A DNA stretch of 44,849 bases from Escherichia phage EC115 (NC_073080.1), one strand, 5' to 3'; positions 5,026 through 37,560 are shown, numbered from the stretch's first letter. Notes: generated by a model from the sequence alone, not told the origin. Numbers and translations are program-made.

Positions 5026-5790
5026 TTAGCGCGGAATACCGCAAATCTCGTTGAGAGTTTTCACATCCAGCGCCACCGCCGTGGATTTTGGCTTATCCGG
5101 GTAAGGGATGAATTGCTCAACTTCAGGCCATGCCTTAATCAGCTTCTTATCGGTATTGTGCATGTCCAGCACACCGGTAACGGTAAACTTGAATGCGTCA
5201 TACTTAGCACGCAACTCACGGCGGGCCTTGTCGTTACGGTCAAGGCGCTTGCAGAAGTCATGATCTGCCGGGAAATCCGCACGGCAGCGTGGCTTATAGA
5301 TCGGCAGCGATTTTCCGTCCTCGTCCACTTCACACACTGAAGCCAACATAACTGTCTCGAACCCCGGAACGATATCTCCGAGATCAGGCGAGAGCGTATT
5401 CATATATTTCTCTTCCCAGTATCCGCGATGTACGCGGTATTGGCGACCGTCACCGCTCAAGGACAAGATGCGAACATTGCCGCCTGCGTTGATTTCAAAG
5501 GTGGCGTCGTAAACGCTGCCGATACCCTTCGGGCGATCTGTGTCATAGCGATATGTTGCCTTGTTGGTGTATACGCTGACGTTGTACATCTGCGACTGGT
5601 CGTCGCGGATTGCCTTGATATGCTCGCGGAGCGCTGCGAACGTGCGAATGCCTTCCGGCATACAGTCCAGCGTGATTGCGTACGCCAGGTCGCGAGAGTC
5701 CATCATGATTGTTTTGGCTTCGGTAGCGATTTCGTGGTCGCGCAGGATGTTAGCCAGGATCTGATTTTTAATGTCTTTCGTCAGTCTCAT
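5026..5790 (-). CDS. Hypothetical protein (reverse-strand moron in head module)
   Basis: 254 aa ORF on the strand opposite to the structural genes, bounded by the terminator at 5001-5023; no recognisable motif. Confidence 0.6.
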   Translation of the reverse strand: MRLTKDIKNQILANILRDHEIATEAKTIMMDSRDLAYAITLDCMPEGIRTFAALREHIKAIRDDQSQMYNVSVYTNKATYRYDTDRPKGIGSVYDATFEINAGGNVRILSLSGDGRQYRVHRGYWEEKYMNTLSPDLGDIVPGFETVMLASVCEVDEDGKSLPIYKPRCRADFPADHDFCKRLDRNDKARRELRAKYDAFKFTVTGVLDMHNTDKKLIKAWPEVEQFIPYPDKPKSTAVALDVKTLNEICGIPR

Positions 5791-24262: not shown

Positions 24263-24265
24263 ATA

Positions 24266-24291
24266 GAAGGGGCCGTATGGCCCCTTTTTTA
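24266..24291. terminator. Bidirectional terminator between tail fibre and leftward operon
   Basis: GAAGGGGCC-gtat-GGCCCCTT hairpin followed by six T. Confidence 0.65.
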
Positions 24292-24864
24292 GTTTGAGTT
24301 TTCCCAGTCCATTTTGCGCCGCACTAGCGGGCTTTCGTAATACTCCTTCCCATCCACTTCCACTAAGGGCCAGTCATTAACAATGACGTAAGGCTCTGCG
24401 ATATCCTCGATCACGCCGTGCGCGCTATGTTGTCCGAAATCTACGCCCACCAGGATAACCCCGGCAACGCGACGAGTGAGATACTCGCGAGCGCAACGGG
24501 CCTCGACCAGTCCTCGACGTATTCCGCTGGTGGCCTTAACCTCGTAGGTCCAGACGGCATCGATCACATGTTCTCGGAAGTCGGGGCCGGATTTTACCTT
24601 GCGCTTGCCGACCATGATAATATCGCCGCGGTCGATCGTGTTAGCGCTAAACAGGCCGGTACGCATTAGCAAACCTTGCGGGATACAGCTACGCCCGCCC
24701 GCCTGTCCTTCGAGGTACATGCCAGCAAACATCTCGCCCAGCACACCGACAAGACGGCTTTGCTTGCAAGCGTCGGACTTGTATCGCCACTGGTCAAACT
24801 CGATGCTGGCAATCATTGCTGCCAGGTGGAATTGTTTACCGGTTATTTCATATTCGCCGTACAT
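24289..24864 (-). CDS. Hypothetical protein (possible PD-(D/E)xK-like fold)
   Basis: 191 aa, last gene of the leftward operon; D...EVK arrangement (GDIIMVGK ... TYEVKA) loosely suggests a nuclease-like fold. Confidence 0.5.
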   Translation of the reverse strand: MYGEYEITGKQFHLAAMIASIEFDQWRYKSDACKQSRLVGVLGEMFAGMYLEGQAGGRSCIPQGLLMRTGLFSANTIDRGDIIMVGKRKVKSGPDFREHVIDAVWTYEVKATSGIRRGLVEARCAREYLTRRVAGVILVGVDFGQHSAHGVIEDIAEPYVIVNDWPLVEVDGKEYYESPLVRRKMDWENSN

Positions 24865-24905: not shown

Positions 24906-25457
24906 TTATTTAAGTGCGCCAGTCACAAGTGTTTTTTCCATGTTACGGAAATCTTCCGGCGTCATGAGGATTTTAGACCCGTCCTCGCCAGTGAGCACGA
25001 CCATAGGCTGGACGTCCTGATCTGCGATGCCAAAATTAGCGGCTTTAACCGTTTTACCGGGGGTAAATGCGTCTCCTGTTTTGACGGGCCAACCTTTGAG
25101 GCTATCGAATTGTGCTGCCGTTGTATCGATCTGAATCTCGTCATGCACGGTCATGTAAGACTCGCCCAGCAGGGCGGCATACGCCACCAGGTCCACGATG
25201 TTATCTTCCTGGTGCTTACGGGTCTGGCGCACCAGCTTCAGGCAGATCAGGAAGGTCCAGGCTTCTTGCTCGGTAAGGTCGCGCCCGGTAAGCGCGTTAA
25301 ACACGGCGGCGATCTGTCTAGCGCTGCGTTCCTCTTTCGCGTTGTCATAGCCGTTTTCTTTCCCGCGCTGTTCCATAGTGGTGGCGGCGTTTTTGCAGTA
25401 TTCGTATGCTTTCACAGTATTACCCTTTTTAGTGAGGGGGCGGTATTGCCCCGACAC
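24906..25457 (-). CDS. Hypothetical protein
   Basis: 183 aa ORF with its own promoter/operator at 25462-25491. Confidence 0.55.
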   Translation of the reverse strand: MSGQYRPLTKKGNTVKAYEYCKNAATTMEQRGKENGYDNAKEERSARQIAAVFNALTGRDLTEQEAWTFLICLKLVRQTRKHQEDNIVDLVAYAALLGESYMTVHDEIQIDTTAAQFDSLKGWPVKTGDAFTPGKTVKAANFGIADQDVQPMVVLTGEDGSKILMTPEDFRNMEKTLVTGALK

Positions 25458-25461
25458 GTTT

Positions 25462-25491
25462 ACTATAGTGCAACCAACCTATTGGTTGCAA
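25462..25491 (-). promoter_or_regulatory. Promoter with embedded perfect palindromic operator
   Basis: Minus strand TTGCAA-N18-TATAGT; the spacer is filled by TGCAACCAA-ccta-TTGGTTGCA (25469-25490, 9 bp arms). Confidence 0.5.
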
Positions 25492-25949
25492 GTGAATTTT
25501 GCAACGTTTATTGCGTAAATTTTCGGGACCAAATCACCACACGCCCGACGAATTGCCGCGATGTTCTTCGGGCAGTCCTCAATGATGACCAGTTCCGACA
25601 CGTCCGCATAGCAGACCATTTTGAACACGGCGCACGCCTTAAACTCTGGCGGCGGGGTGTCGTCCAGCATGTGGCGCATAAACAACCGGCCTACGGGGAA
25701 GACTTCCAGTTGTTTGGCGGTGGTGTCCCAACATTCTCGCTGCCGGTTGGTCAGATACGCGATCTCGAAGCCTTGCTCTTTATACATGCGCAGTAGCGGC
25801 AGCATATCCATGTTCAGGTCTTCGCGGACGTGCGCTTTGTGCCACTTCGCCCAAAAGGTGGATTTAGTTTTTATGCCCGGCACCAAGTCGGCGCGCGCAT
25901 CGCTTGATCCATTAATAACGCCATCCAGATCACAAATCAGTAATTTCAT
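25479..25949 (-). CDS. HAD-superfamily phosphatase-like protein
   Basis: 156 aa; N-terminal LICDLDGVI (DxDGx) HAD motif I; later Thr and acidic residues consistent with HAD motifs. Confidence 0.5.
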   Translation of the reverse strand: MKLLICDLDGVINGSSDARADLVPGIKTKSTFWAKWHKAHVREDLNMDMLPLLRMYKEQGFEIAYLTNRQRECWDTTAKQLEVFPVGRLFMRHMLDDTPPPEFKACAVFKMVCYADVSELVIIEDCPKNIAAIRRACGDLVPKIYAINVAKFTCNQ

Positions 25950-26179
25950 TTTAAGCTCTCAATAAGGGTCTGTCGGGCGCTTCGCGCAGTAACGGAGTTG
26001 CATACGAAATGACAACGCTGAGTCATGACAAGCCAACCGGTGAGGTCAAGGCCCATGATGTATTCGGGGCGAGACGCGCGCACCACACGATCGCGGCGTG
26101 GGTCGATGTTATAGTCTTTTTGCATTTGGTCTACGACCGCGTGGTCGCGGTCAACGATTAAGATATTCATGTAGCTCAC
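25946..26179 (-). CDS. Hypothetical protein
   Basis: 77 aa ORF overlapping both neighbours in operon context. Confidence 0.4.
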   Translation of the reverse strand: MSYMNILIVDRDHAVVDQMQKDYNIDPRRDRVVRASRPEYIMGLDLTGWLVMTQRCHFVCNSVTARSARQTLIESLK

Positions 26180-26636
26180 TCTCGCTCATTATTTCAATTT
26201 GTGCGCTGCCGAGGGGCGGCGCTTCGTCAAATATTATCAATTGCTGGCACTTGTTATTGCTCGGACCGACTTCGCCGGTGACGGCGTGAATGAATCTAAT
26301 CCGCCAGTCCAGAAGAATTATCATATTGGCGGTCTTCCGGGCCAGCTTCGCCCACTTAGTCGACGTGTCCTGATTCAGTAGCATGACGGTCCGGCGTCCG
26401 TGCGCTGCACACTCGACCCACGGCAGCGGATCGGAATATGGCGGGTTGCACCACTTCCACCCTTTCAACTCTGCCCAGTCCGCATCAAGCGCGCTGTGTT
26501 CCTCCGTGAAGTATCGCGGTAGCAGGTGATTGGCATCGCTTGCCGCCATATCGTAACGGAATCGGTACTTCCGACGCAGTGGTTTAAATAAAGCTGGCGG
26601 CGTGCGCCAGCTATCTTTTTGCTCATTCTTCGTCAT
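26151..26636 (-). CDS. dam: DNA N6-adenine methyltransferase (phage Dam-type)
   Basis: 161 aa; WRTPP...DMAASDANHL...WCNPPYS motifs (NPPY catalytic motif) typical of small phage Dam methyltransferases. Confidence 0.8.
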   Translation of the reverse strand: MTKNEQKDSWRTPPALFKPLRRKYRFRYDMAASDANHLLPRYFTEEHSALDADWAELKGWKWCNPPYSDPLPWVECAAHGRRTVMLLNQDTSTKWAKLARKTANMIILLDWRIRFIHAVTGEVGPSNNKCQQLIIFDEAPPLGSAQIEIMSESELHEYLNR

Positions 26637-27081
26637 AGTCTGGATCTATCGCATACAGGGCGGTTTTCTTGCCGCGAGACAGCACACGTTGGACTCGGGA
26701 TATCTCCTCCCTACTGAGCGGTCTGCTATCGGAATAGTAGCTGCCGTTTGCACGCCACGCTATATGCACCAGTCCTTTCCGCGGGATCGAAGACTGGCGG
26801 CCTTTGGGGCGCACGTACTCCTCGGCACGTTTGCAATGCTCGCGCAGACCTTCGGCAGTGATGCGGTTTAGCGCGACGGTGGTGGTGTATCCGGTGCGCT
26901 GCATAATACCCATCAACTCATACAGCAGATCGAAGCGTTCCTCTAACTCCTTGCGCACTTTCTTCTCGCCTTCATATAGCGCCTGGTTGGTGTCCGCCAG
27001 CGCGTTAGCCCGCTCGGCCTGTTCACGGGCTTCGAGGCATTGCGCGGCCCAGTATGCTTTTTCTTCTTGTAAAATTTTCAT
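26623..27081 (-). CDS. Hypothetical coiled-coil protein
   Basis: 152 aa, charged helical N-terminal half; GGAGA RBS. Confidence 0.5.
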   Translation of the reverse strand: MKILQEEKAYWAAQCLEAREQAERANALADTNQALYEGEKKVRKELEERFDLLYELMGIMQRTGYTTTVALNRITAEGLREHCKRAEEYVRPKGRQSSIPRKGLVHIAWRANGSYYSDSRPLSREEISRVQRVLSRGKKTALYAIDPDYDEE

Positions 27082-27324
27082 TTATTTAGTCTCCGTAGTG
27101 CGGATTTCATCGCGTGGAATAAATTTGCCGTCCATCTCGACCCAGCAGACACCGTAGCGCCATTGAGTGTTACGACCTGTTTGCTCTGCGTACACAGTCC
27201 GGCATTCGTAGCGTTCCGAGTAGTAGACCACCGCGGCAGGTGCGAAAACACAAACTGCGATCATGAGGGTGAGTATCACCCAAAATCGAAGGTCGCCGTC
27301 GTAGTCGAAAAATAATGATTTCAT
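27082..27324 (-). CDS. Small membrane protein
   Basis: 80 aa from ATG 27324 (GGAGA RBS); single hydrophobic helix (FWVILTLMIAVCVFAPAAVVYY); track ORF extends to 27543. Confidence 0.5.
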   Translation of the reverse strand: MKSLFFDYDGDLRFWVILTLMIAVCVFAPAAVVYYSERYECRTVYAEQTGRNTQWRYGVCWVEMDGKFIPRDEIRTTETK

Positions 27325-27370
27325 CGTGTTGTCTCCGGGTATTAAAAAGGGCTTCCAACCGGACACCCTT

Positions 27371-27399
27371 AAGATAATGCAACCAATATGATTATGCAA
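27371..27399 (-). promoter_or_regulatory. Candidate promoter with two direct TTGGTTGCA copies
   Basis: Minus strand TTGCAT-N17-TATCTT; 9-mers at 27378-27386 and 27395-27403. Confidence 0.35.
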
Positions 27400-27404
27400 C
27401 CAAT

Positions 27405-27728
27405 TTACGAATAAAAATTTGGGTCGCGCGCTACGTCTACCAGATACAGATTGCTCATGCGGTTGCCGTAGTGCCCTGGTGTGCGCTGGCGGCACACAAC
27501 GGCGAAGCCTGGGGGAATTGTATTGCCCGTCTCGATAATCCACGCCACGCGTGCGCCAGACAGCGTCTTGCCGTTGTATTCGATGCGCGTGCCACCATCG
27601 GCAGTGTTAAGGTTGCCAATCTTACAGCCTGTGGACTTCAGGCGAATGACACCGGTCTTGCTGTCGTAGGAAAAAAGCTGATTGGTCATTGCCACTGAAA
27701 AGTCGATTGCGTCGAATGCAGTATTCAT
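27405..27728 (-). CDS. Hypothetical protein
   Basis: 107 aa ORF, start overlapping the stop of the methyltransferase-like gene. Confidence 0.45.
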   Translation of the reverse strand: MNTAFDAIDFSVAMTNQLFSYDSKTGVIRLKSTGCKIGNLNTADGGTRIEYNGKTLSGARVAWIIETGNTIPPGFAVVCRQRTPGHYGNRMSNLYLVDVARDPNFYS

Positions 27729-28435
27729 TTTAAATTTTCCTCGTTAACCGCTATCGCGAAGCCGCGCGGGGTGAGTGAGCGGATTAATTTTGTACGAGCG
27801 GATTTACCACCGAGGCGACTATACTGCTTCGAGTACCCATTTTCAACGAAAACAGGTTTCTTCTCTGGCATACGGAAGCCGTTGCCGGTCCATAAGCAGG
27901 TCAGCTTCGGATATGAATCGCGGGCGTTGATGTATTCCGGGAATAACGGGTGCACGTCATCCTCCGGCAGATATCCACCATACTCCCACGGGTTAAACGA
28001 GTGGTCCGGCTTGCGCAATTGGGTCGATAGCACGCTGCGCGGATTCTCAATCATATATGGCACTTCGAAGAAGTCCCCCAGGTAAGCGGCGATCTTCGCG
28101 GTGCGCACCGCCTTAAGCTGAAAGGCCGGGTCTTTGGCCCGCTTGCGCGGGAAAGCTGGCGCACCGCTAACTGCCAGATCCGTACACGGCGGGAACGCAT
28201 ATATGATATCCGGCGTACCGAAATCGCCATTCATCGCGCGGTCTACAAAGTCCAGATCGATAAACTCATTGCGATATCGGATCCCGCGACCATAAATCCG
28301 GTAGTCTAGGTACGACCCGTGGTCGGCTTCGGAGTAGTTGAAGCAATAACACTTATGCCCCATCTCGGCAGCACGCTCAATCATCAAGCCGCTGCCGTCA
28401 AGCAATGACCAGATTGTCATTTTAGCAATAGTCAT
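27725..28435 (-). CDS. DNA cytosine-5 methyltransferase-like protein (compact)
   Basis: 236 aa; motif I-like LLDGSG, motif IV-like FPPCTDLAVSG with Cys, ENP (motif VI-like); ATGA overlap with the helicase gene. Confidence 0.5.
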   Translation of the reverse strand: MTIAKMTIWSLLDGSGLMIERAAEMGHKCYCFNYSEADHGSYLDYRIYGRGIRYRNEFIDLDFVDRAMNGDFGTPDIIYAFPPCTDLAVSGAPAFPRKRAKDPAFQLKAVRTAKIAAYLGDFFEVPYMIENPRSVLSTQLRKPDHSFNPWEYGGYLPEDDVHPLFPEYINARDSYPKLTCLWTGNGFRMPEKKPVFVENGYSKQYSRLGGKSARTKLIRSLTPRGFAIAVNEENLK

Positions 28436-29892
28436 TTGCGCGCCTTTTTAGCTTTCATGTATTCCATCAAGTCGTCCTGAATATCTCGCTTACTGTCGCG
28501 ACGTTCGGCGACCAGTTCATCCAGTGTCCCGCGCGCCTGGATAATGTAGACGAATACCGGACGAGGGTGTCCGGCTTGCATCTGGCGAACCGGCCCTATA
28601 CGCTCCACAATCTGCGAAAAGTGCTCATAGTTCCAGGTGTCTGAGAAGATAGCAAGGTGGTGCCCCCCATCCTGCAGGTTAAGTCCGTGACCCGCTGACG
28701 CTGGGTGTGCAAACATGATGGGGATCTCGCCCCTGTTCCACGCTTCCATATCCTTATTTCCTTGCTTACCCTTACCCATCGCTACGCCGTGCGGGAATTT
28801 CTTCTTGAGACGCGCCAGATCATGCTTGTACTGGTATGCGACGAGCAACGGTGCGCCGTTCAACTCCTCCACGATACTTTCCAGCGCGTCCAGCTTAGCG
28901 TCGTGAATTTTCACCCACTCGTCGGTCCGTTCACCGTCTTCGTCGACTTTATACACTGCCCCCGAAGCAAGCTGAAGGCACTTAATGGTCTTCGACGCGG
29001 CGTTCGCCGCCTCCACCGTTCCGCTTTCCAGTTCGGCAAATAGCTCCGCTTCGAACTGGTCATAAATCTTGCGGGCTTTCTTCGGCAGGTCCACAACAAC
29101 CGGCGTATAGATTGGCTTGTCACATCCGAAGTATTCAGCCGCATCAACGGTGAGCGACACGTCGGACAGGCGTTGTTGTATTTCTTTCTCGGAGTTTTTT
29201 AGCGGGGCGTGCTGCATAGTGAAGCTGCTAGGCTTAACCGGCTTGCTAATAAACCAGCGGTCTGTGAATGCCTTATAACTACTGCCGAGGCGTTCGCCAC
29301 CGTCGACAAACCACGTCTGACCCCATAAGTCCTTCAGCCCGTTTGGTGCGGGTGTGCCGGTAAGGTTAATCCAGCGTTTGACGTGCTTATGCGCAATAGC
29401 CGCCAGCGCGCGGGCGCGCTTACTCCCCTGCTTGCTTCTATAGCCTTTCAGCTTAGTGGATTCATCGGCAACAACGACCGTAAAGGGCCACTCGTCGCCG
29501 CAATACTCGACAAGCCACTCAACCACATCATAGTTAACACAAACTACGTTAGCGTCGCTCTCAAGCGCAGCGATGCGGTCCTTCTCTGGTCCGGTGCCGT
29601 CTACTACCAGCAGGGCAGGGAAGCGCCATTTTTCTTGCTCCGGGGGCCATGTACCGGACGCAACGCGCAGCGGGGCCAGCACCAGTACGCGGTCCTCCTG
29701 GTTGGATAGGATGCCGGTCTGGAACATTTTATTCAGCGCCCACATAGTCGCGCCGGTTTTACCAGACCCCATTGTCGCCCATATATTGCATCGCTTATGC
29801 TTGAGGATGAACGCGGTTATCAACTTCTGATATTCGCGACGTCGGAAACGTGCCATATCTTTATTCCGCCTTTTTCCAGACTTCTGTTTCAC
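28432..29892 (-). CDS. SF2 (SNF2/DEAD-like) helicase
   Basis: Walker A MGSGKTG, DEST (DExx) box, C-terminal helicase region; first ATG (MARF...) is at 29856, the track ORF starts at a GTG at 29892. Confidence 0.85.
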   Translation of the reverse strand: MKQKSGKRRNKDMARFRRREYQKLITAFILKHKRCNIWATMGSGKTGATMWALNKMFQTGILSNQEDRVLVLAPLRVASGTWPPEQEKWRFPALLVVDGTGPEKDRIAALESDANVVCVNYDVVEWLVEYCGDEWPFTVVVADESTKLKGYRSKQGSKRARALAAIAHKHVKRWINLTGTPAPNGLKDLWGQTWFVDGGERLGSSYKAFTDRWFISKPVKPSSFTMQHAPLKNSEKEIQQRLSDVSLTVDAAEYFGCDKPIYTPVVVDLPKKARKIYDQFEAELFAELESGTVEAANAASKTIKCLQLASGAVYKVDEDGERTDEWVKIHDAKLDALESIVEELNGAPLLVAYQYKHDLARLKKKFPHGVAMGKGKQGNKDMEAWNRGEIPIMFAHPASAGHGLNLQDGGHHLAIFSDTWNYEHFSQIVERIGPVRQMQAGHPRPVFVYIIQARGTLDELVAERRDSKRDIQDDLMEYMKAKKARK

Positions 29893-37026: not shown

Positions 37027-37055
37027 ATATTAGATTGGTTGCATGAGGGAGTCAA
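37027..37055 (-). promoter_or_regulatory. Leftward sigma70-like promoter for the early/replication operon
   Basis: Minus strand TTGACT-N17-TAATAT; overlaps a TTGGTTGCA 9-mer. Confidence 0.5.
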
Positions 37056-37063
37056 CAACTAAT

Positions 37064-37101
37064 TTCAAAAAAAAAGCGCCGAAGCAAAATGCGACGGCGC
37101 T
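37064..37101 (-). terminator. Strong leftward intrinsic terminator (orphan, upstream of the leftward promoter)
   Basis: On the minus strand AGCGCCG-14 nt loop-CGGCGCU followed by nine U (the A9 run on the plus strand). Confidence 0.6.
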
Positions 37102-37125
37102 AACCAATAAGAGACAATGAGACGG
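37067..37125 (-). ncRNA. Candidate small RNA (about 55 nt) ending at the orphan terminator
   Basis: Candidate leftward promoter at about 37131-37158 (TTGAAA-N17-AATAAT on the minus strand) lies about 30 nt upstream of the hairpin; no ORF. Hypothetical. Confidence 0.25.
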
Positions 37126-37170
37126 GAGTATTATTACACGCGTGCGCGCCCGTTTCAATATCCAAAGGAT

Positions 37171-37199
37171 TTGACACCTTGTGGTTTTAGGTGTAGTTT
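37171..37199 (+). promoter_or_regulatory. Rightward promoter for the HTH/primase operon
   Basis: TTGACA-N17-TAGTTT, then GAGGG RBS before the ATG at 37231; divergent from the leftward promoters. Confidence 0.45.
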
Positions 37200-37230
37200 C
37201 GTTGGTCATTAACCAACTGAGGGCAGAGCA

Positions 37231-37560
37231 ATGAATGTAAACGACGCAATCGAAATGTTAACGACGACTGTTAGCAGTGAAACAAGCCGGTCATGGGCTT
37301 ATACCGATGCCGTTGGGGCGGTGCTATTTGAGGTCGAGCGCCTGCGCAGTGTAGAAAAAGAATTACGCGCCAGGCTGGAATTGCTCAACGGTACGGCGGC
37401 GAGCAAGCTACAAAAACACAATGAAGAAATGGAAGAATACAAAAAGCAGGTTATCCGTTTGCGCGCCGAGGGCAAATCCTGGGCGATGATTGCCGAGTTG
37501 ACCGGAATTAATCAGAGCACAGTGCGCTCTTGGGTACGCAATAACAAAACTTCTAAGTAA
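37231..37560 (+). CDS. HTH DNA-binding protein (putative regulator)
   Basis: 109 aa; helical N-terminus and C-terminal HTH-like segment (SWAMIAELTGINQSTVRSW). Confidence 0.6.
   Translation: MNVNDAIEMLTTTVSSETSRSWAYTDAVGAVLFEVERLRSVEKELRARLELLNGTAASKLQKHNEEMEEYKKQVIRLRAEGKSWAMIAELTGINQSTVRSWVRNNKTSK

What the first reader, a model, noticed from the sequence alone, without database searches (positions are those of the whole stretch)
25479..28435. Early-operon block with Dam-type and Dcm-like methyltransferases plus a HAD-like phosphatase
Within 3 kb the phage encodes an N6-adenine methyltransferase (NPPY motif), a compact cytosine-5 methyltransferase-like protein (LLDGSG, FPPC, ENP motifs), a HAD-like phosphatase (DxDG motif) and several small unknowns. 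This points to self-protective DNA methylation and possibly nucleotide-pool manipulation; the short methyltransferase-like protein lacks an obvious target-recognition domain and could have another activity.
Basis: partly seen in the sequence, partly recalled or inferred. Interest (0 to 1): 0.5.

Follow-up and report, generated by a model that had tools for sequence, protein, structure and literature searches.

The report
Known Dhillonvirus methyltransferase and phosphatase genes
This is the conserved, already annotated DNA-metabolism block of a Dhillonvirus coliphage: two orphan DNA methyltransferases, a small phosphatase and several small proteins, three of which already have published roles in phage-host immunity.

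Summary

The window is a Dhillonvirus genome. The block is syntenic at 90-93% nucleotide identity in about 150 GenBank phages, where it carries the same annotations.

- **236-aa protein:** a real but very compact C5-cytosine methyltransferase. It has a high-confidence model whose best structural neighbours are all C5-methyltransferases. Motifs I, IV and VI are invariant, and only about 30 residues stand in place of a target-recognition domain. It is 53% identical to the 'Dcm' of phage KarlJaspers; the near-identical strain K42 enzyme was shown to put 5mC on retron Ec86 msDNA and trigger that defence. An unrelated activity is therefore unlikely. CCWGG specificity remains only indirectly supported.
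- **161-aa protein:** a Pfam PF05869 Dam-type enzyme, related to the T1 and Stx-phage Dam proteins.
- **156-aa protein:** a capless HAD phosphatase. It is closest to the 3'-phosphatase domains of T4 Pnkp and Pnkp1, which favours end-healing over nucleotide-pool manipulation.
- **Small 'unknowns':** two are published proteins, Ksap1 (activator of KpAvs2) and anti-Tmn.

Verdict: already known, low interest.

The parts
27725..28435 (-). Compact (236 aa) orphan C5-cytosine DNA methyltransferase, annotated 'Dcm-like'. Motif I is LLDGSG (residues 11-16), motif IV is FPPC with catalytic Cys84, motif VI is E130-N-P, and a DNMT3-like motif X is TPRGFA (222-227). Only about 30 residues separate the motif VIII-equivalent (YPK177) from LGGKS (208-212).
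27405..27728 (-). 107-aa HNH-like protein, annotated as an HNH or homing endonuclease in relatives. It may be catalytically degenerate.
   Evidence: phrog_99 E 1.9e-15 over part of the profile. No Pfam or NCBIfam hit. Conserved in relatives.
27082..27324 (-). 80-aa protein of unknown function with one hydrophobic, probably membrane-spanning, segment. The mechanical ORF extends to a GTG at 27543, but homologues support the 80-aa form.
   Evidence: phrog_18961 E 5.3e-50 matching residues 74-153 of the long ORF. An 80-aa gene is annotated in Oekolampad. The gene is absent from SM_S22.
26623..27081 (-). 152-aa homologue of the Dhillonvirus anti-Tmn protein, an inhibitor of the Tmn defence system. 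It is mislabelled 'DNA ligase' in PHROGs-derived annotations.
   Evidence: 79% identical to SM_S22 CDS0035 (ORF35, anti-Tmn). No ligase support from Pfam, NCBIfam or PDB.
26151..26636 (-). 161-aa Dam-type N6-adenine DNA methyltransferase with NPPY at residues 64-67. GATC is the inferred target.
   Evidence: PF05869 E 5.7e-37, 127 bits. TIGR01712 scores 87.8 bits, below its 97.05 cut-off. PADLOC orphan methyltransferase. 31% identical to the T1 Dam gene product. 38% identical to Stx-phage Dam. M.EcoVT2Dam is reported to target GATC.
25946..26170 (-). 74-aa Ksap1 homologue, the Dhillonvirus protein that binds and activates the Klebsiella Avs2 immune receptor. The ORF can also be read from a GTG at 26179.
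   Evidence: phrog_10685 E 5.5e-44. 88% identical to Bas18 gene 0031. Its position between the methyltransferase and phosphatase genes, and its length, match the description in PMC11564622.
25479..25949 (-). 156-aa capless HAD-superfamily phosphatase. Motif I is D7-L-D9-G, motif II is T67, motif III is K104 and motif IV is D125. It is closest to polynucleotide 3'-phosphatase domains.
   Evidence: phrog_415 E 5.1e-37. All four motifs are invariant across 12 homologues. A profile search hits Pnkp1 (E 0.0019) and a class C acid phosphatase. AF2 model with pLDDT 84. Foldseek best hits are Pnkp1 4xru and the T4 Pnkp 3'-phosphatase 5uj0, with TM-score 0.69 normalised to the query and 0.75 to the target.
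28432..29892 (-). Context: SNF2-type helicase. Its stop codon overlaps the start of the C5-methyltransferase gene (ATGA).
   Evidence: PF00176 E 7.7e-11. phrog_62 E 3e-157. Junction sequence shown.
24265..24288 (.). Context: a bidirectional terminator-like hairpin that closes the leftward gene cluster against the convergent tail-fibre gene.
   Evidence: 10-pair and 8-pair G+C-rich stems followed by T runs on both strands.

Best explanation
The block is the conserved distal part of the leftward DNA-metabolism gene cluster of a Dhillonvirus (HK578-like coliphage). It encodes two orphan, post-replicative DNA methyltransferases that have no partner endonuclease.

**C5-methyltransferase (236 aa).** It is expected to use Cys84 (motif IV) as the nucleophile and Glu130 (motif VI) to protonate N3, transferring a methyl group from SAM to cytosine C5. 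It has almost no target-recognition domain and is most like the DNMT3 catalytic domain. Its best-studied homologue methylates a CCTGG-containing hairpin. The likely target is therefore CCWGG or a shorter CC-containing site.

**Dam-type enzyme (161 aa).** It is expected to methylate adenine N6 through its NPPY pocket, most likely at GATC.

**Joint role (inferred).** Together they would keep rapidly replicating phage DNA fully methylated at two sites that are abundant in this genome. That would protect against restriction enzymes aimed at those sites. The cost is that the cytosine methylation is itself sensed by retron Eco1 (Ec86).

**HAD protein.** It is a capless aspartyl-phosphatase of the T4 Pnkp 3'-phosphatase type. 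It most likely removes 3'-phosphates from nucleic-acid ends or from 3'-nucleotides.

**Interspersed small genes.** These include Ksap1 (sensed by Avs2) and anti-Tmn (which blocks Tmn).

**Shown here:** gene structure, family membership, folds, motif conservation and homology to characterised proteins.

**Inferred:** the target sequences, the protective role, the phosphatase substrate and the timing of expression.
For: - **Identity and conservation of the block:**
- **C5-methyltransferase fold and motifs:**
- **Homology to the K42/KarlJaspers Dcm:** 53% identity, with the catalytic Cys, Glu and first Lys at equivalent positions.
- **Published experiments on that homologue:** escape mutants map to dcm, 5mC was found on msDNA by LC-MS, mutating the two C's of CCTGG abolishes defence, and 34 of 35 Ec86-sensitive phages encode Dcm.
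- **Dam:** PF05869 at 127 bits. The protein is related to the T1 Dam gene and to Stx-phage Dam, for which GATC is reported.
- **Site statistics:** GATC (173 sites) and CCWGG (150 sites) are not avoided. In contrast, 10 of 50 well-expected palindromic hexamers are absent, against 2 of 1898 non-palindromic ones.
- **HAD:**
- **Ksap1 and anti-Tmn:**
- **Operon-like packing and terminator:**
Against: - The window protein itself gives no Pfam PF00145 hit.
- A profile comparison with E. coli K-12 Dcm aligns only motif IV, at E 0.19. The 'Dcm-like' name and CCWGG specificity therefore do not follow from homology to Dcm.
- The K42 experiments were done in dcm+ MG1655, where host Dcm did not trigger the retron. 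This leaves room for a different site or substrate preference.
- The canonical motif VIII (QxRxR) is not recognisable; YPK(K/L)T stands in its place.
- The Dam protein scores below the NCBIfam equivalog cut-off. It is only 31-38% identical to characterised GATC enzymes.
- Dhillonvirus phages are reported as comparatively sensitive to the restriction systems tested in BASEL.
- The methyltransferase gene is dispensable: K42 escape mutants lack it, and phage Teewinot carries only a 61-aa remnant.
- No enzyme assay or methylome exists for this phage.
Confidence: 0.8

Rival explanations
1. The compact C5-methyltransferase does not copy host Dcm. Lacking a conventional target-recognition domain, it may recognise a shorter or different site, for example one containing CC. 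It may also prefer hairpin, single-stranded or replicating DNA. Either would give broader methylation than CCWGG.
For: Only about 30 residues lie between the motif VIII-equivalent and the C-terminal motifs. The nearest structures are DNMT3A/3B, which read 2 bp. There is no detectable homology to the Dcm recognition domain. Host Dcm in MG1655 did not activate Ec86 whereas the phage enzyme did, and only the two C's of CCTGG were tested by mutation.
Against: The published interpretation is CCWGG. The family is concentrated in phages of Enterobacteriaceae. CCWGG is abundant and not avoided in this genome. Overexpression alone could explain the difference from host Dcm.
Confidence: 0.27
2. The 236-aa protein performs chemistry other than methyl transfer, for example carboxymethyl transfer from Cx-SAM as CmoX does. 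Alternatively, it is a non-catalytic DNA binder.
Against: The K42 homologue produced 5mC by LC-MS. The catalytic Cys, Glu and SAM-binding motif I are invariant. A hand alignment of PRGFAIAV to the DNMT3A motif X GRSWSVPV (DNMT3A sequence verified) places Arg224 opposite DNMT3A Arg891. By this alignment it does not occupy the Asn304/Arg350 position that selects Cx-SAM in CmoX (inference). No CmoA or CmoY genes turned up among the ORFs scanned.
Confidence: 0.04
3. The HAD protein acts on free nucleotides. It would be a 5'- or 3'-nucleotidase that reshapes or detoxifies the dNMP pool, or destroys nucleotide-derived immune signals, rather than healing polynucleotide ends.
For: There are weak hits to class B/C acid phosphatases and to the e(P4) 5'-nucleotidase family. 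Some GenBank records call it a nucleotidase. No kinase or ligase partner is evident in the block. Nucleotide monophosphates are known immune triggers.
Against: The best structural and profile matches are the Pnkp1 and T4 Pnkp 3'-phosphatase domains. The protein has no cap domain, which in HAD enzymes generally goes with large substrates (established knowledge of the HAD superfamily).
Confidence: 0.3
4. The two methyltransferases serve phage DNA transactions rather than defence against restriction. Possible roles include avoiding MutH or Vsr processing of hemimethylated replicating DNA, timing of packaging, and gene regulation.
For: Dhillonvirus phages remain restriction-sensitive in BASEL assays. 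The genome relies heavily on palindrome avoidance for other sites. The genes sit among replication and recombination genes, and the C5-methyltransferase is translationally coupled to a helicase.
Against: The C5-methyltransferase is dispensable in the laboratory and has been lost naturally. The restriction systems tested in BASEL do not target GATC or CCWGG, so that sensitivity says little.
Confidence: 0.2

Closest known systems
Phage K42 / KarlJaspers (Bas06, Drexlerviridae) 'Dcm', the trigger of retron Ec86/Eco1 (bioRxiv 10.1101/2023.08.16.553469)
   Same: Both are 236 aa and 53% identical over the full length. The catalytic Cys, the motif VI Glu and the first Lys sit at equivalent positions (C84/E130/K177 here, C82/E128/K175 there). 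Both belong to the same compact family.
   Different: The second Lys (K176) is Leu178 here. The phage family and gene neighbourhood differ. No experiment has been done on the Dhillonvirus enzyme. Whether it triggers retron Eco1 is inferred.
Canonical C5-cytosine DNA methyltransferases (Pfam PF00145; M.HhaI, DNMT3A/3B catalytic domains)
   Different: The window protein gives no Pfam hit. Family members match only the first ~90 profile positions. Motif VIII QxRxR is not recognisable. The recognition region is about 30 residues, which by recollection compares with ~80-100 in M.HhaI (not measured here).
E. coli Dcm / M.EcoRII (CCWGG)
   Same: The annotation label is shared, and the homologue's reported target lies within CCTGG.
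   Different: The host enzyme is 472 aa. Only motif IV aligns, at E 0.19. There is no shared recognition domain, and no Vsr-type domain turned up among the block ORFs scanned.
Phage Dam family PF05869 / TIGR01712 (T1 Dam; Stx-phage M.EcoVT2Dam; HP1/HP2 Dam)
   Same: The Pfam hit is strong, with an NPPY motif. The protein is 31% identical to T1 Dam and 38% identical to Stx-phage Dam. Like them it is an orphan enzyme in a phage.
   Different: At 161 aa it is much shorter than T1 Dam (237 aa) and lacks its N-terminal ~50 residues and an internal insertion. It scores below the TIGR01712 cut-off. Its specificity is untested.
T4 polynucleotide kinase-phosphatase 3'-phosphatase domain, and the Pnkp1 phosphatase domain
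   Same: It has a capless HAD fold with DxDG(T/V) chemistry. TM-scores to 5uj0 are 0.69 (normalised to the query) and 0.75 (to the target). A profile search hits Pnkp1.
   Different: The protein stands alone, with no kinase domain and no identified ligase partner. Sequence identity is only 17-21%.
Ksap1 (SECphi18) and anti-Tmn (SM_S22 ORF35), both Dhillonvirus proteins
   Same: Both occupy the same positions in the same block. The 74-aa protein is 88% identical to the Bas18 gene at the Ksap1 position, and the 152-aa protein is 79% identical to SM_S22 anti-Tmn.
   Different: Ksap1 here carries V30/M39/V60, the combination reported not to activate KpAvs2. Anti-Tmn activity is reported to vary with small sequence changes, so activity here is unknown.

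Membership tests
C5-cytosine DNA methyltransferase superfamily | Class I SAM-methyltransferase fold whose closest structural neighbours are C5-methyltransferases | tested here: met
C5-cytosine DNA methyltransferase superfamily | Motif I (F-x-G-x-G) for SAM binding | tested here: met
   L-L-D-G-S-G at residues 11-16. G14, S15 and G16 are invariant and F12 is nearly invariant across the family.
C5-cytosine DNA methyltransferase superfamily | Motif IV Pro-Cys with the catalytic cysteine | tested here: met
   P82-P83-C84-T85 are invariant in 32 sequences. This motif aligns with the PCQ of E. coli Dcm and is equivalent to C82 of K42 Dcm.
C5-cytosine DNA methyltransferase superfamily | Motif VI Glu-Asn-Val | tested here: met
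   E130-N131-P132 are invariant.
C5-cytosine DNA methyltransferase superfamily | Motif VIII Q-x-R-x-R | tested here: inconclusive
   No QxRxR is present. The strand at the corresponding place reads Y-P-K177-(K/L)-T179-C-L-W, with K177, T179 and W182 invariant. No residue-level structural alignment was available.
C5-cytosine DNA methyltransferase superfamily | Passing the Pfam PF00145 gathering score | tested here: not met
   The window protein gives no hit at E<=0.1. 19 of 32 relatives hit at E<=10. Three of them exceed 22 bits, but only over profile positions 4-94.
C5-cytosine DNA methyltransferase superfamily | A sizeable target-recognition domain between motifs VIII and IX | tested here: not met
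   About 30 residues (178-207), mostly loop, separate the K177 strand from L208-G-G-K-S.
C5-cytosine DNA methyltransferase superfamily | Formation of 5-methylcytosine in DNA | not testable with these tools
   Shown by LC-MS only for the K42 homologue; the window protein is 53% identical to the KarlJaspers (Bas06) version of it.
Dcm / M.EcoRII family (CCWGG-specific) | Sequence homology to Dcm, including its recognition domain | tested here: not met
   hhalign of the family profile against K-12 Dcm aligns 27 columns around motif IV only, E 0.19.
Dcm / M.EcoRII family (CCWGG-specific) | Methylation of the inner cytosine of CCWGG | not testable with these tools
   Support is indirect. Mutating either C of CCTGG in the msDNA abolishes K42-triggered defence. 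CCWGG is not avoided in the window.
Phage Dam family (Pfam PF05869 / TIGR01712) | Passing the family model thresholds | tested here: met
   PF05869 scores 127.4 bits against a cut-off of 28.1. The stricter TIGR01712 equivalog is not reached (87.8 against 97.05).
Phage Dam family (Pfam PF05869 / TIGR01712) | (D/N)PPY catalytic motif | tested here: met
   N64-P-P-Y67 aligns with the NPPY of T1 Dam.
Phage Dam family (Pfam PF05869 / TIGR01712) | N6-adenine methylation at GATC | not testable with these tools
   Inferred from T1 Dam (own knowledge of the literature) and from M.EcoVT2Dam, at 31-38% identity.
HAD superfamily phosphatase | Four catalytic motifs: DxD, S/T, K and an acidic pair | tested here: met
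   D7, D9, R69, K104 and D125 are invariant. Residue 67 is T or S in all 12 homologues.
HAD superfamily phosphatase | Rossmannoid HAD fold | tested here: met
   AF2 model with pLDDT 84. 38 PDB matches at E<=1e-3; the matches listed are HAD-fold proteins.
T4 Pnkp-type polynucleotide 3'-phosphatase | Closest relatives are Pnkp phosphatase domains, with no cap domain | tested here: met
   The top Foldseek hits are 4xru/4xrp (Pnkp1) and 5uj0 (T4 Pnkp phosphatase). The profile search hits Pnkp1 at E 0.0019. phrog_415 is labelled 'polynucleotide kinase'.
T4 Pnkp-type polynucleotide 3'-phosphatase | Fused or adjacent 5'-kinase, and activity on 3'-phosphate ends | tested here: not met
   The protein is a 156-aa single domain, and no kinase domain turned up in the block. 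Activity is not testable here.

The most novel reading that the evidence does not exclude
The near-TRD-less 'Dcm-like' family has about 1900 clusters at 50% identity and occurs in about 3% of sequenced phages. It may not be a Dcm mimic at all. It could be a short-site or structure-preferring cytosine methyltransferase, for example one that recognises CC, or that favours hairpin or replicating DNA. That would explain why it, and not host Dcm, fires retron Eco1. More broadly, this block already holds a retron trigger, an Avs2 trigger and an anti-Tmn inhibitor. It could be a concentrated immunity-interface island whose remaining genes (the HAD 3'-phosphatase, the 80-aa membrane protein, the HNH-like protein) also act in defence or counter-defence.
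Probability: 0.25. Interest if true: 0.4.

Novelty: already known. Interest (0 to 1): 0.15.

Why it matters
The result mainly guards against over-reading. The block is a standard, well-sampled Dhillonvirus module, already annotated this way in GenBank.

Three of its genes have published roles in phage-host immunity:
- the Dcm-like enzyme family, as the trigger of retron Eco1;
- Ksap1, as the activator of Avs2;
- anti-Tmn, as an inhibitor of Tmn.

The residual value is modest. The sequence specificity of this very compact C5-methyltransferase family has never been measured directly. The substrate of the stand-alone Pnkp-like phosphatase is also unknown. Both are cheap to test.

Tried and rejected
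1. **Direct sequence links to solved structures.** The 236-aa protein and its family profile gave only a spurious hit to a kinase. The link had to come from fold comparison instead.
2. **Homology to host Dcm.** The profile comparison aligned only motif IV, so I rejected inferring CCWGG specificity from the name.
4. **'DNA ligase' label for the 152-aa protein.** No Pfam, NCBIfam or PDB support. It is the anti-Tmn homologue.
5. **PADLOC scan of the block.** Only generic methyltransferase models hit the Dam protein.
6. **Rfam scan of the window.** No RNA family found.
7. **Lar-like restriction-alleviation gene.** One is annotated upstream of the helicase in SM_S22, but the corresponding 57-aa ORF here gave no PHROG hit.
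8. **Literature searches for a measured methylome or specificity.** Searches for this methyltransferase family, for Dhillonvirus and for PF05869 specificity found nothing direct.
9. **Druantia and OI-172 defence-island papers.** Both were read and had no bearing on the block.

Full report
**Observation.** The coordinates 25479-28435 run exactly from the stop codon of a 156-aa ORF to the start codon of a 236-aa ORF, both on the minus strand. Between them lie ORFs of 107, 80, 152, 161 and 77 (or 74) aa. LLDGSG (residues 11-16), FPPC (81-84) and ENP (130-132) are in the 236-aa protein. NPPY (64-67) is in the 161-aa protein. DLDG (7-10) is in the 156-aa protein. The genes are packed like an operon, with 4-bp ATGA-type overlaps at three junctions, including helicase to methyltransferase.

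**What the window is.** The 5.7 kb around the block matches 160 phage records at 90-93% identity. Of these, 149 cover at least 80% of it, and nearly all are Escherichia or Shigella phages of the genus Dhillonvirus, such as HH3, SSL-2009a, EK99P-1 and the BASEL phages Oekolampad and TheodorHerzl. In those records the genes are already annotated as 'Dcm-like C5 cytosine methyltransferase', 'Dam-like N6-adenine methyltransferase' and 'putative phosphatase'. The block sits at the distal end of a long leftward cluster that also holds DNA polymerase I, exonuclease, a single-strand annealing protein and an SNF2 helicase. The cluster ends at a bidirectional terminator-like hairpin at 24265-24288, facing the convergent tail-fibre gene. 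Sigma-70-like promoters lie near 37030-37260. Whether the block is transcribed 'early' was not tested.

**The 236-aa protein: recognition region and published homologue.** Only about 30 residues separate the K177 strand from the C-terminal motifs. The C-terminal motif PRGFAIAV resembles the DNMT3A GRSWSVPV. I verified the DNMT3A sequence, but the alignment is by hand. Decisive context comes from the literature. The 711-bp dcm gene of phage K42, a KarlJaspers strain in the Drexlerviridae, was identified as the trigger of retron Ec86/Eco1. All four escape mutants hit the gene or its upstream region. Expression of Dcm, but not of a C82A/E128A/K175A/K176A mutant, was toxic with the retron and raised 5mC on msDNA by LC-MS. 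Changing either C of the CCTGG in the msDNA stem abolished defence. Thirty-four of 35 Ec86-sensitive phages encoded Dcm. I located the KarlJaspers gene. The window protein is 53% identical to it over the full length, with C84, E130 and K177 at the equivalent positions; the second Lys is Leu here. The speculation that the protein 'could have another activity' is therefore weak.

**What remains open for the 236-aa protein is specificity.** A profile comparison with E. coli K-12 Dcm aligns only motif IV (E 0.19), so 'Dcm-like' is a label, not a homology statement. The K42 experiments were also run in dcm+ MG1655, where host Dcm did not fire the retron. The gene is dispensable: K42 mutants lack it, and phage Teewinot carries only a 61-aa remnant.

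**The 161-aa protein.** It hits PF05869 (Dam) at E 5.7e-37 and 127 bits. It scores below the stricter TIGR01712 cut-off and has no solved relative by sequence. tblastn finds relatives in 1765 phage records. The annotated methyltransferase gene of phage T1 is 31% identical, with NPPY aligned. Stx-phage Dam is 38% identical, and its VT2-Sa representative is reported to target GATC. That T1 Dam is GATC-specific is my own recollection of the literature, not a result obtained here. The window enzyme lacks T1's N-terminal ~50 residues and an internal insertion. GATC is therefore the best inference, not a demonstrated fact.

**The 156-aa protein.** Pfam gives only a sub-threshold HAD-IIIB hit, while phrog_415 ('polynucleotide kinase') matches at E 5.1e-37. 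Twelve homologues conserve all four HAD motifs: D7, D9, T/S67, K104 and D125. The family profile hits Pnkp1 (E 0.0019) and a class C acid phosphatase. The model (pLDDT 84) matches Pnkp1 and the isolated T4 Pnkp 3'-phosphatase domain best, with TM-scores to 5uj0 of 0.69 (query-normalised) and 0.75 (target-normalised). It is a capless, stand-alone HAD phosphatase of the polynucleotide 3'-phosphatase type. With no kinase or ligase partner in the block, the substrate remains open.

**The 'small unknowns'.** Two are published proteins.
- The 74-aa ORF between the Dam and phosphatase genes is Ksap1, the Dhillonvirus protein that binds and activates the Klebsiella Avs2 receptor. It is 88% identical to the Bas18 gene at the same position. 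It carries V30, M39 and V60, the triple combination reported not to activate KpAvs2; that reading rests on the paper's residue numbering.
- The 152-aa ORF is labelled 'DNA ligase' through PHROG 10530, with no supporting evidence. It is 79% identical to ORF35 of phage SM_S22, the anti-Tmn protein.
- The 107-aa ORF is HNH-like.
- The 80-aa ORF has a hydrophobic segment and no known function.

**Site statistics.** GATC (173 sites) and CCWGG (150 sites) are not avoided. Their observed-to-expected ratios are 0.86 and 0.92 under a maximal-order Markov model. CCWGG is 2.2-fold above the dinucleotide-shuffle expectation. In contrast, 10 of 50 palindromic hexamers with an expected count of at least 6 are completely absent, for example GGCGCC (0 observed, 21 expected), GCCGGC (0, 17) and AAGCTT (0, 14). 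Only 2 of 1898 non-palindromic hexamers are absent. This fits a phage that evades most type II enzymes by purging sites and tolerates the two sites its methyltransferases (and the host's) would cover. It is only circumstantial evidence for specificity.

**Mechanism and rivals.** The best-supported account is this. Two orphan post-replicative methyltransferases, C5-cytosine via Cys84/Glu130 and N6-adenine via NPPY, keep phage DNA methylated. A Pnkp-like 3'-phosphatase and small immunity-interface proteins lie among them.
- The main live rival is that the compact C5 enzyme has a site or substrate preference different from Dcm (about 0.27).
- A nucleotidase role for the HAD protein (about 0.3) and a role for methylation other than anti-restriction (about 0.2) are also open.
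- Different chemistry, such as carboxymethylation, is unlikely (about 0.04).

BASEL phenotyping notes that Dhillonvirus phages are comparatively sensitive to the restriction systems tested and found no simple link between methyltransferase genes and resistance. Those systems do not target GATC or CCWGG.

**Verdict.** The finding is real but ordinary. Everything in the block is either annotated in many GenBank genomes or described in recent papers. Novelty: already known. Interest: low (0.15). The only open points of some value are the never-measured specificity of the near-TRD-less C5-methyltransferase family and the substrate of the stand-alone phosphatase.

Noticed in passing
whole window 1-44849: Palindromic hexamers are strongly avoided. 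Ten of 50 with a Markov-expected count of at least 6 are absent (GGCGCC 0 observed/21 expected, GCCGGC 0/17, AAGCTT 0/14, GGGCCC 0/13, CAGCTG 0/12, CACGTG, TGGCCA, GGTACC, CCCGGG, CCATGG). Only 2 of 1898 non-palindromic hexamers are absent. CTAG (0.35), GGWCC (0.60) and GGCC (0.70) are also depleted, whereas GATC and CCWGG are not.
   Followed up: partly
window 5026-5790 (-): A 254-aa Nmad5-domain protein (PF18757, E 1.6e-60) is encoded on the opposite strand inside the head-gene region. It is 87% identical to SM_S22 CDS0006. Missense mutation of that gene (K216E/K296E) lets Dhillonviruses escape Tmn, and K216 is wild type here. It is a third candidate DNA-modification gene, of unknown chemistry.
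   Followed up: partly
window 25946-26170 (-): The Ksap1 homologue carries V30, M39 and V60, with L47 and T50 intact. This is the same triple combination as phage SECphi6, which the Ksap1 paper reports does not activate KpAvs2. This phage may therefore evade that receptor (residue numbering is inferred).
   Followed up: partly
window 26623-27081 (-); L008:25924-26388: PHROG 10530 and the records derived from it call this protein 'DNA ligase'. It has no ligase features and is the anti-Tmn protein, so an annotation error is propagating through RefSeq and GenBank.
   Followed up: yes
window 27405-27728 (-): The 107-aa 'HNH endonuclease' matches only part of phrog_99 and no Pfam model. By hand alignment to the HNH_3 pattern, the first catalytic His appears to be replaced (…FAVVCRQRTPGHYGNRMSNLYLV). 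It may be a degenerate, non-cutting remnant.
   Followed up: no
L007:3486-3671 (Escherichia phage Teewinot, OK499993): This is a natural Dhillonvirus in which the C5-methyltransferase gene is reduced to a 61-aa remnant between the helicase and the HNH-like gene. The rest of the block is intact.
   Followed up: partly
window 25462-25491: A 9-bp-stem inverted repeat (TGCAACCAACCTATTGGTTGCA) lies in the 21-bp gap after the phosphatase gene. It overlaps a sigma-70-like promoter match on the minus strand, and could be an internal regulatory site ahead of the DUF6378 gene.
   Followed up: no
window 24906-25457 (-) and 24289-24864 (-): The two genes downstream of the block are a DUF6378 protein (PF19905 E 1.3e-9; its related PHROGs carry an implausible 'phosphofructokinase' label) and a conserved 191-aa protein with no family assignment beyond phrog_10558.
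   Followed up: no
search results: Several near-identical Dhillonvirus-type records are labelled as Acinetobacter, Campylobacter, Klebsiella or Sodalis phages, for example OQ221563 'Acinetobacter phage NJ01' at 91.7% identity. These host labels look doubtful.
   Followed up: no
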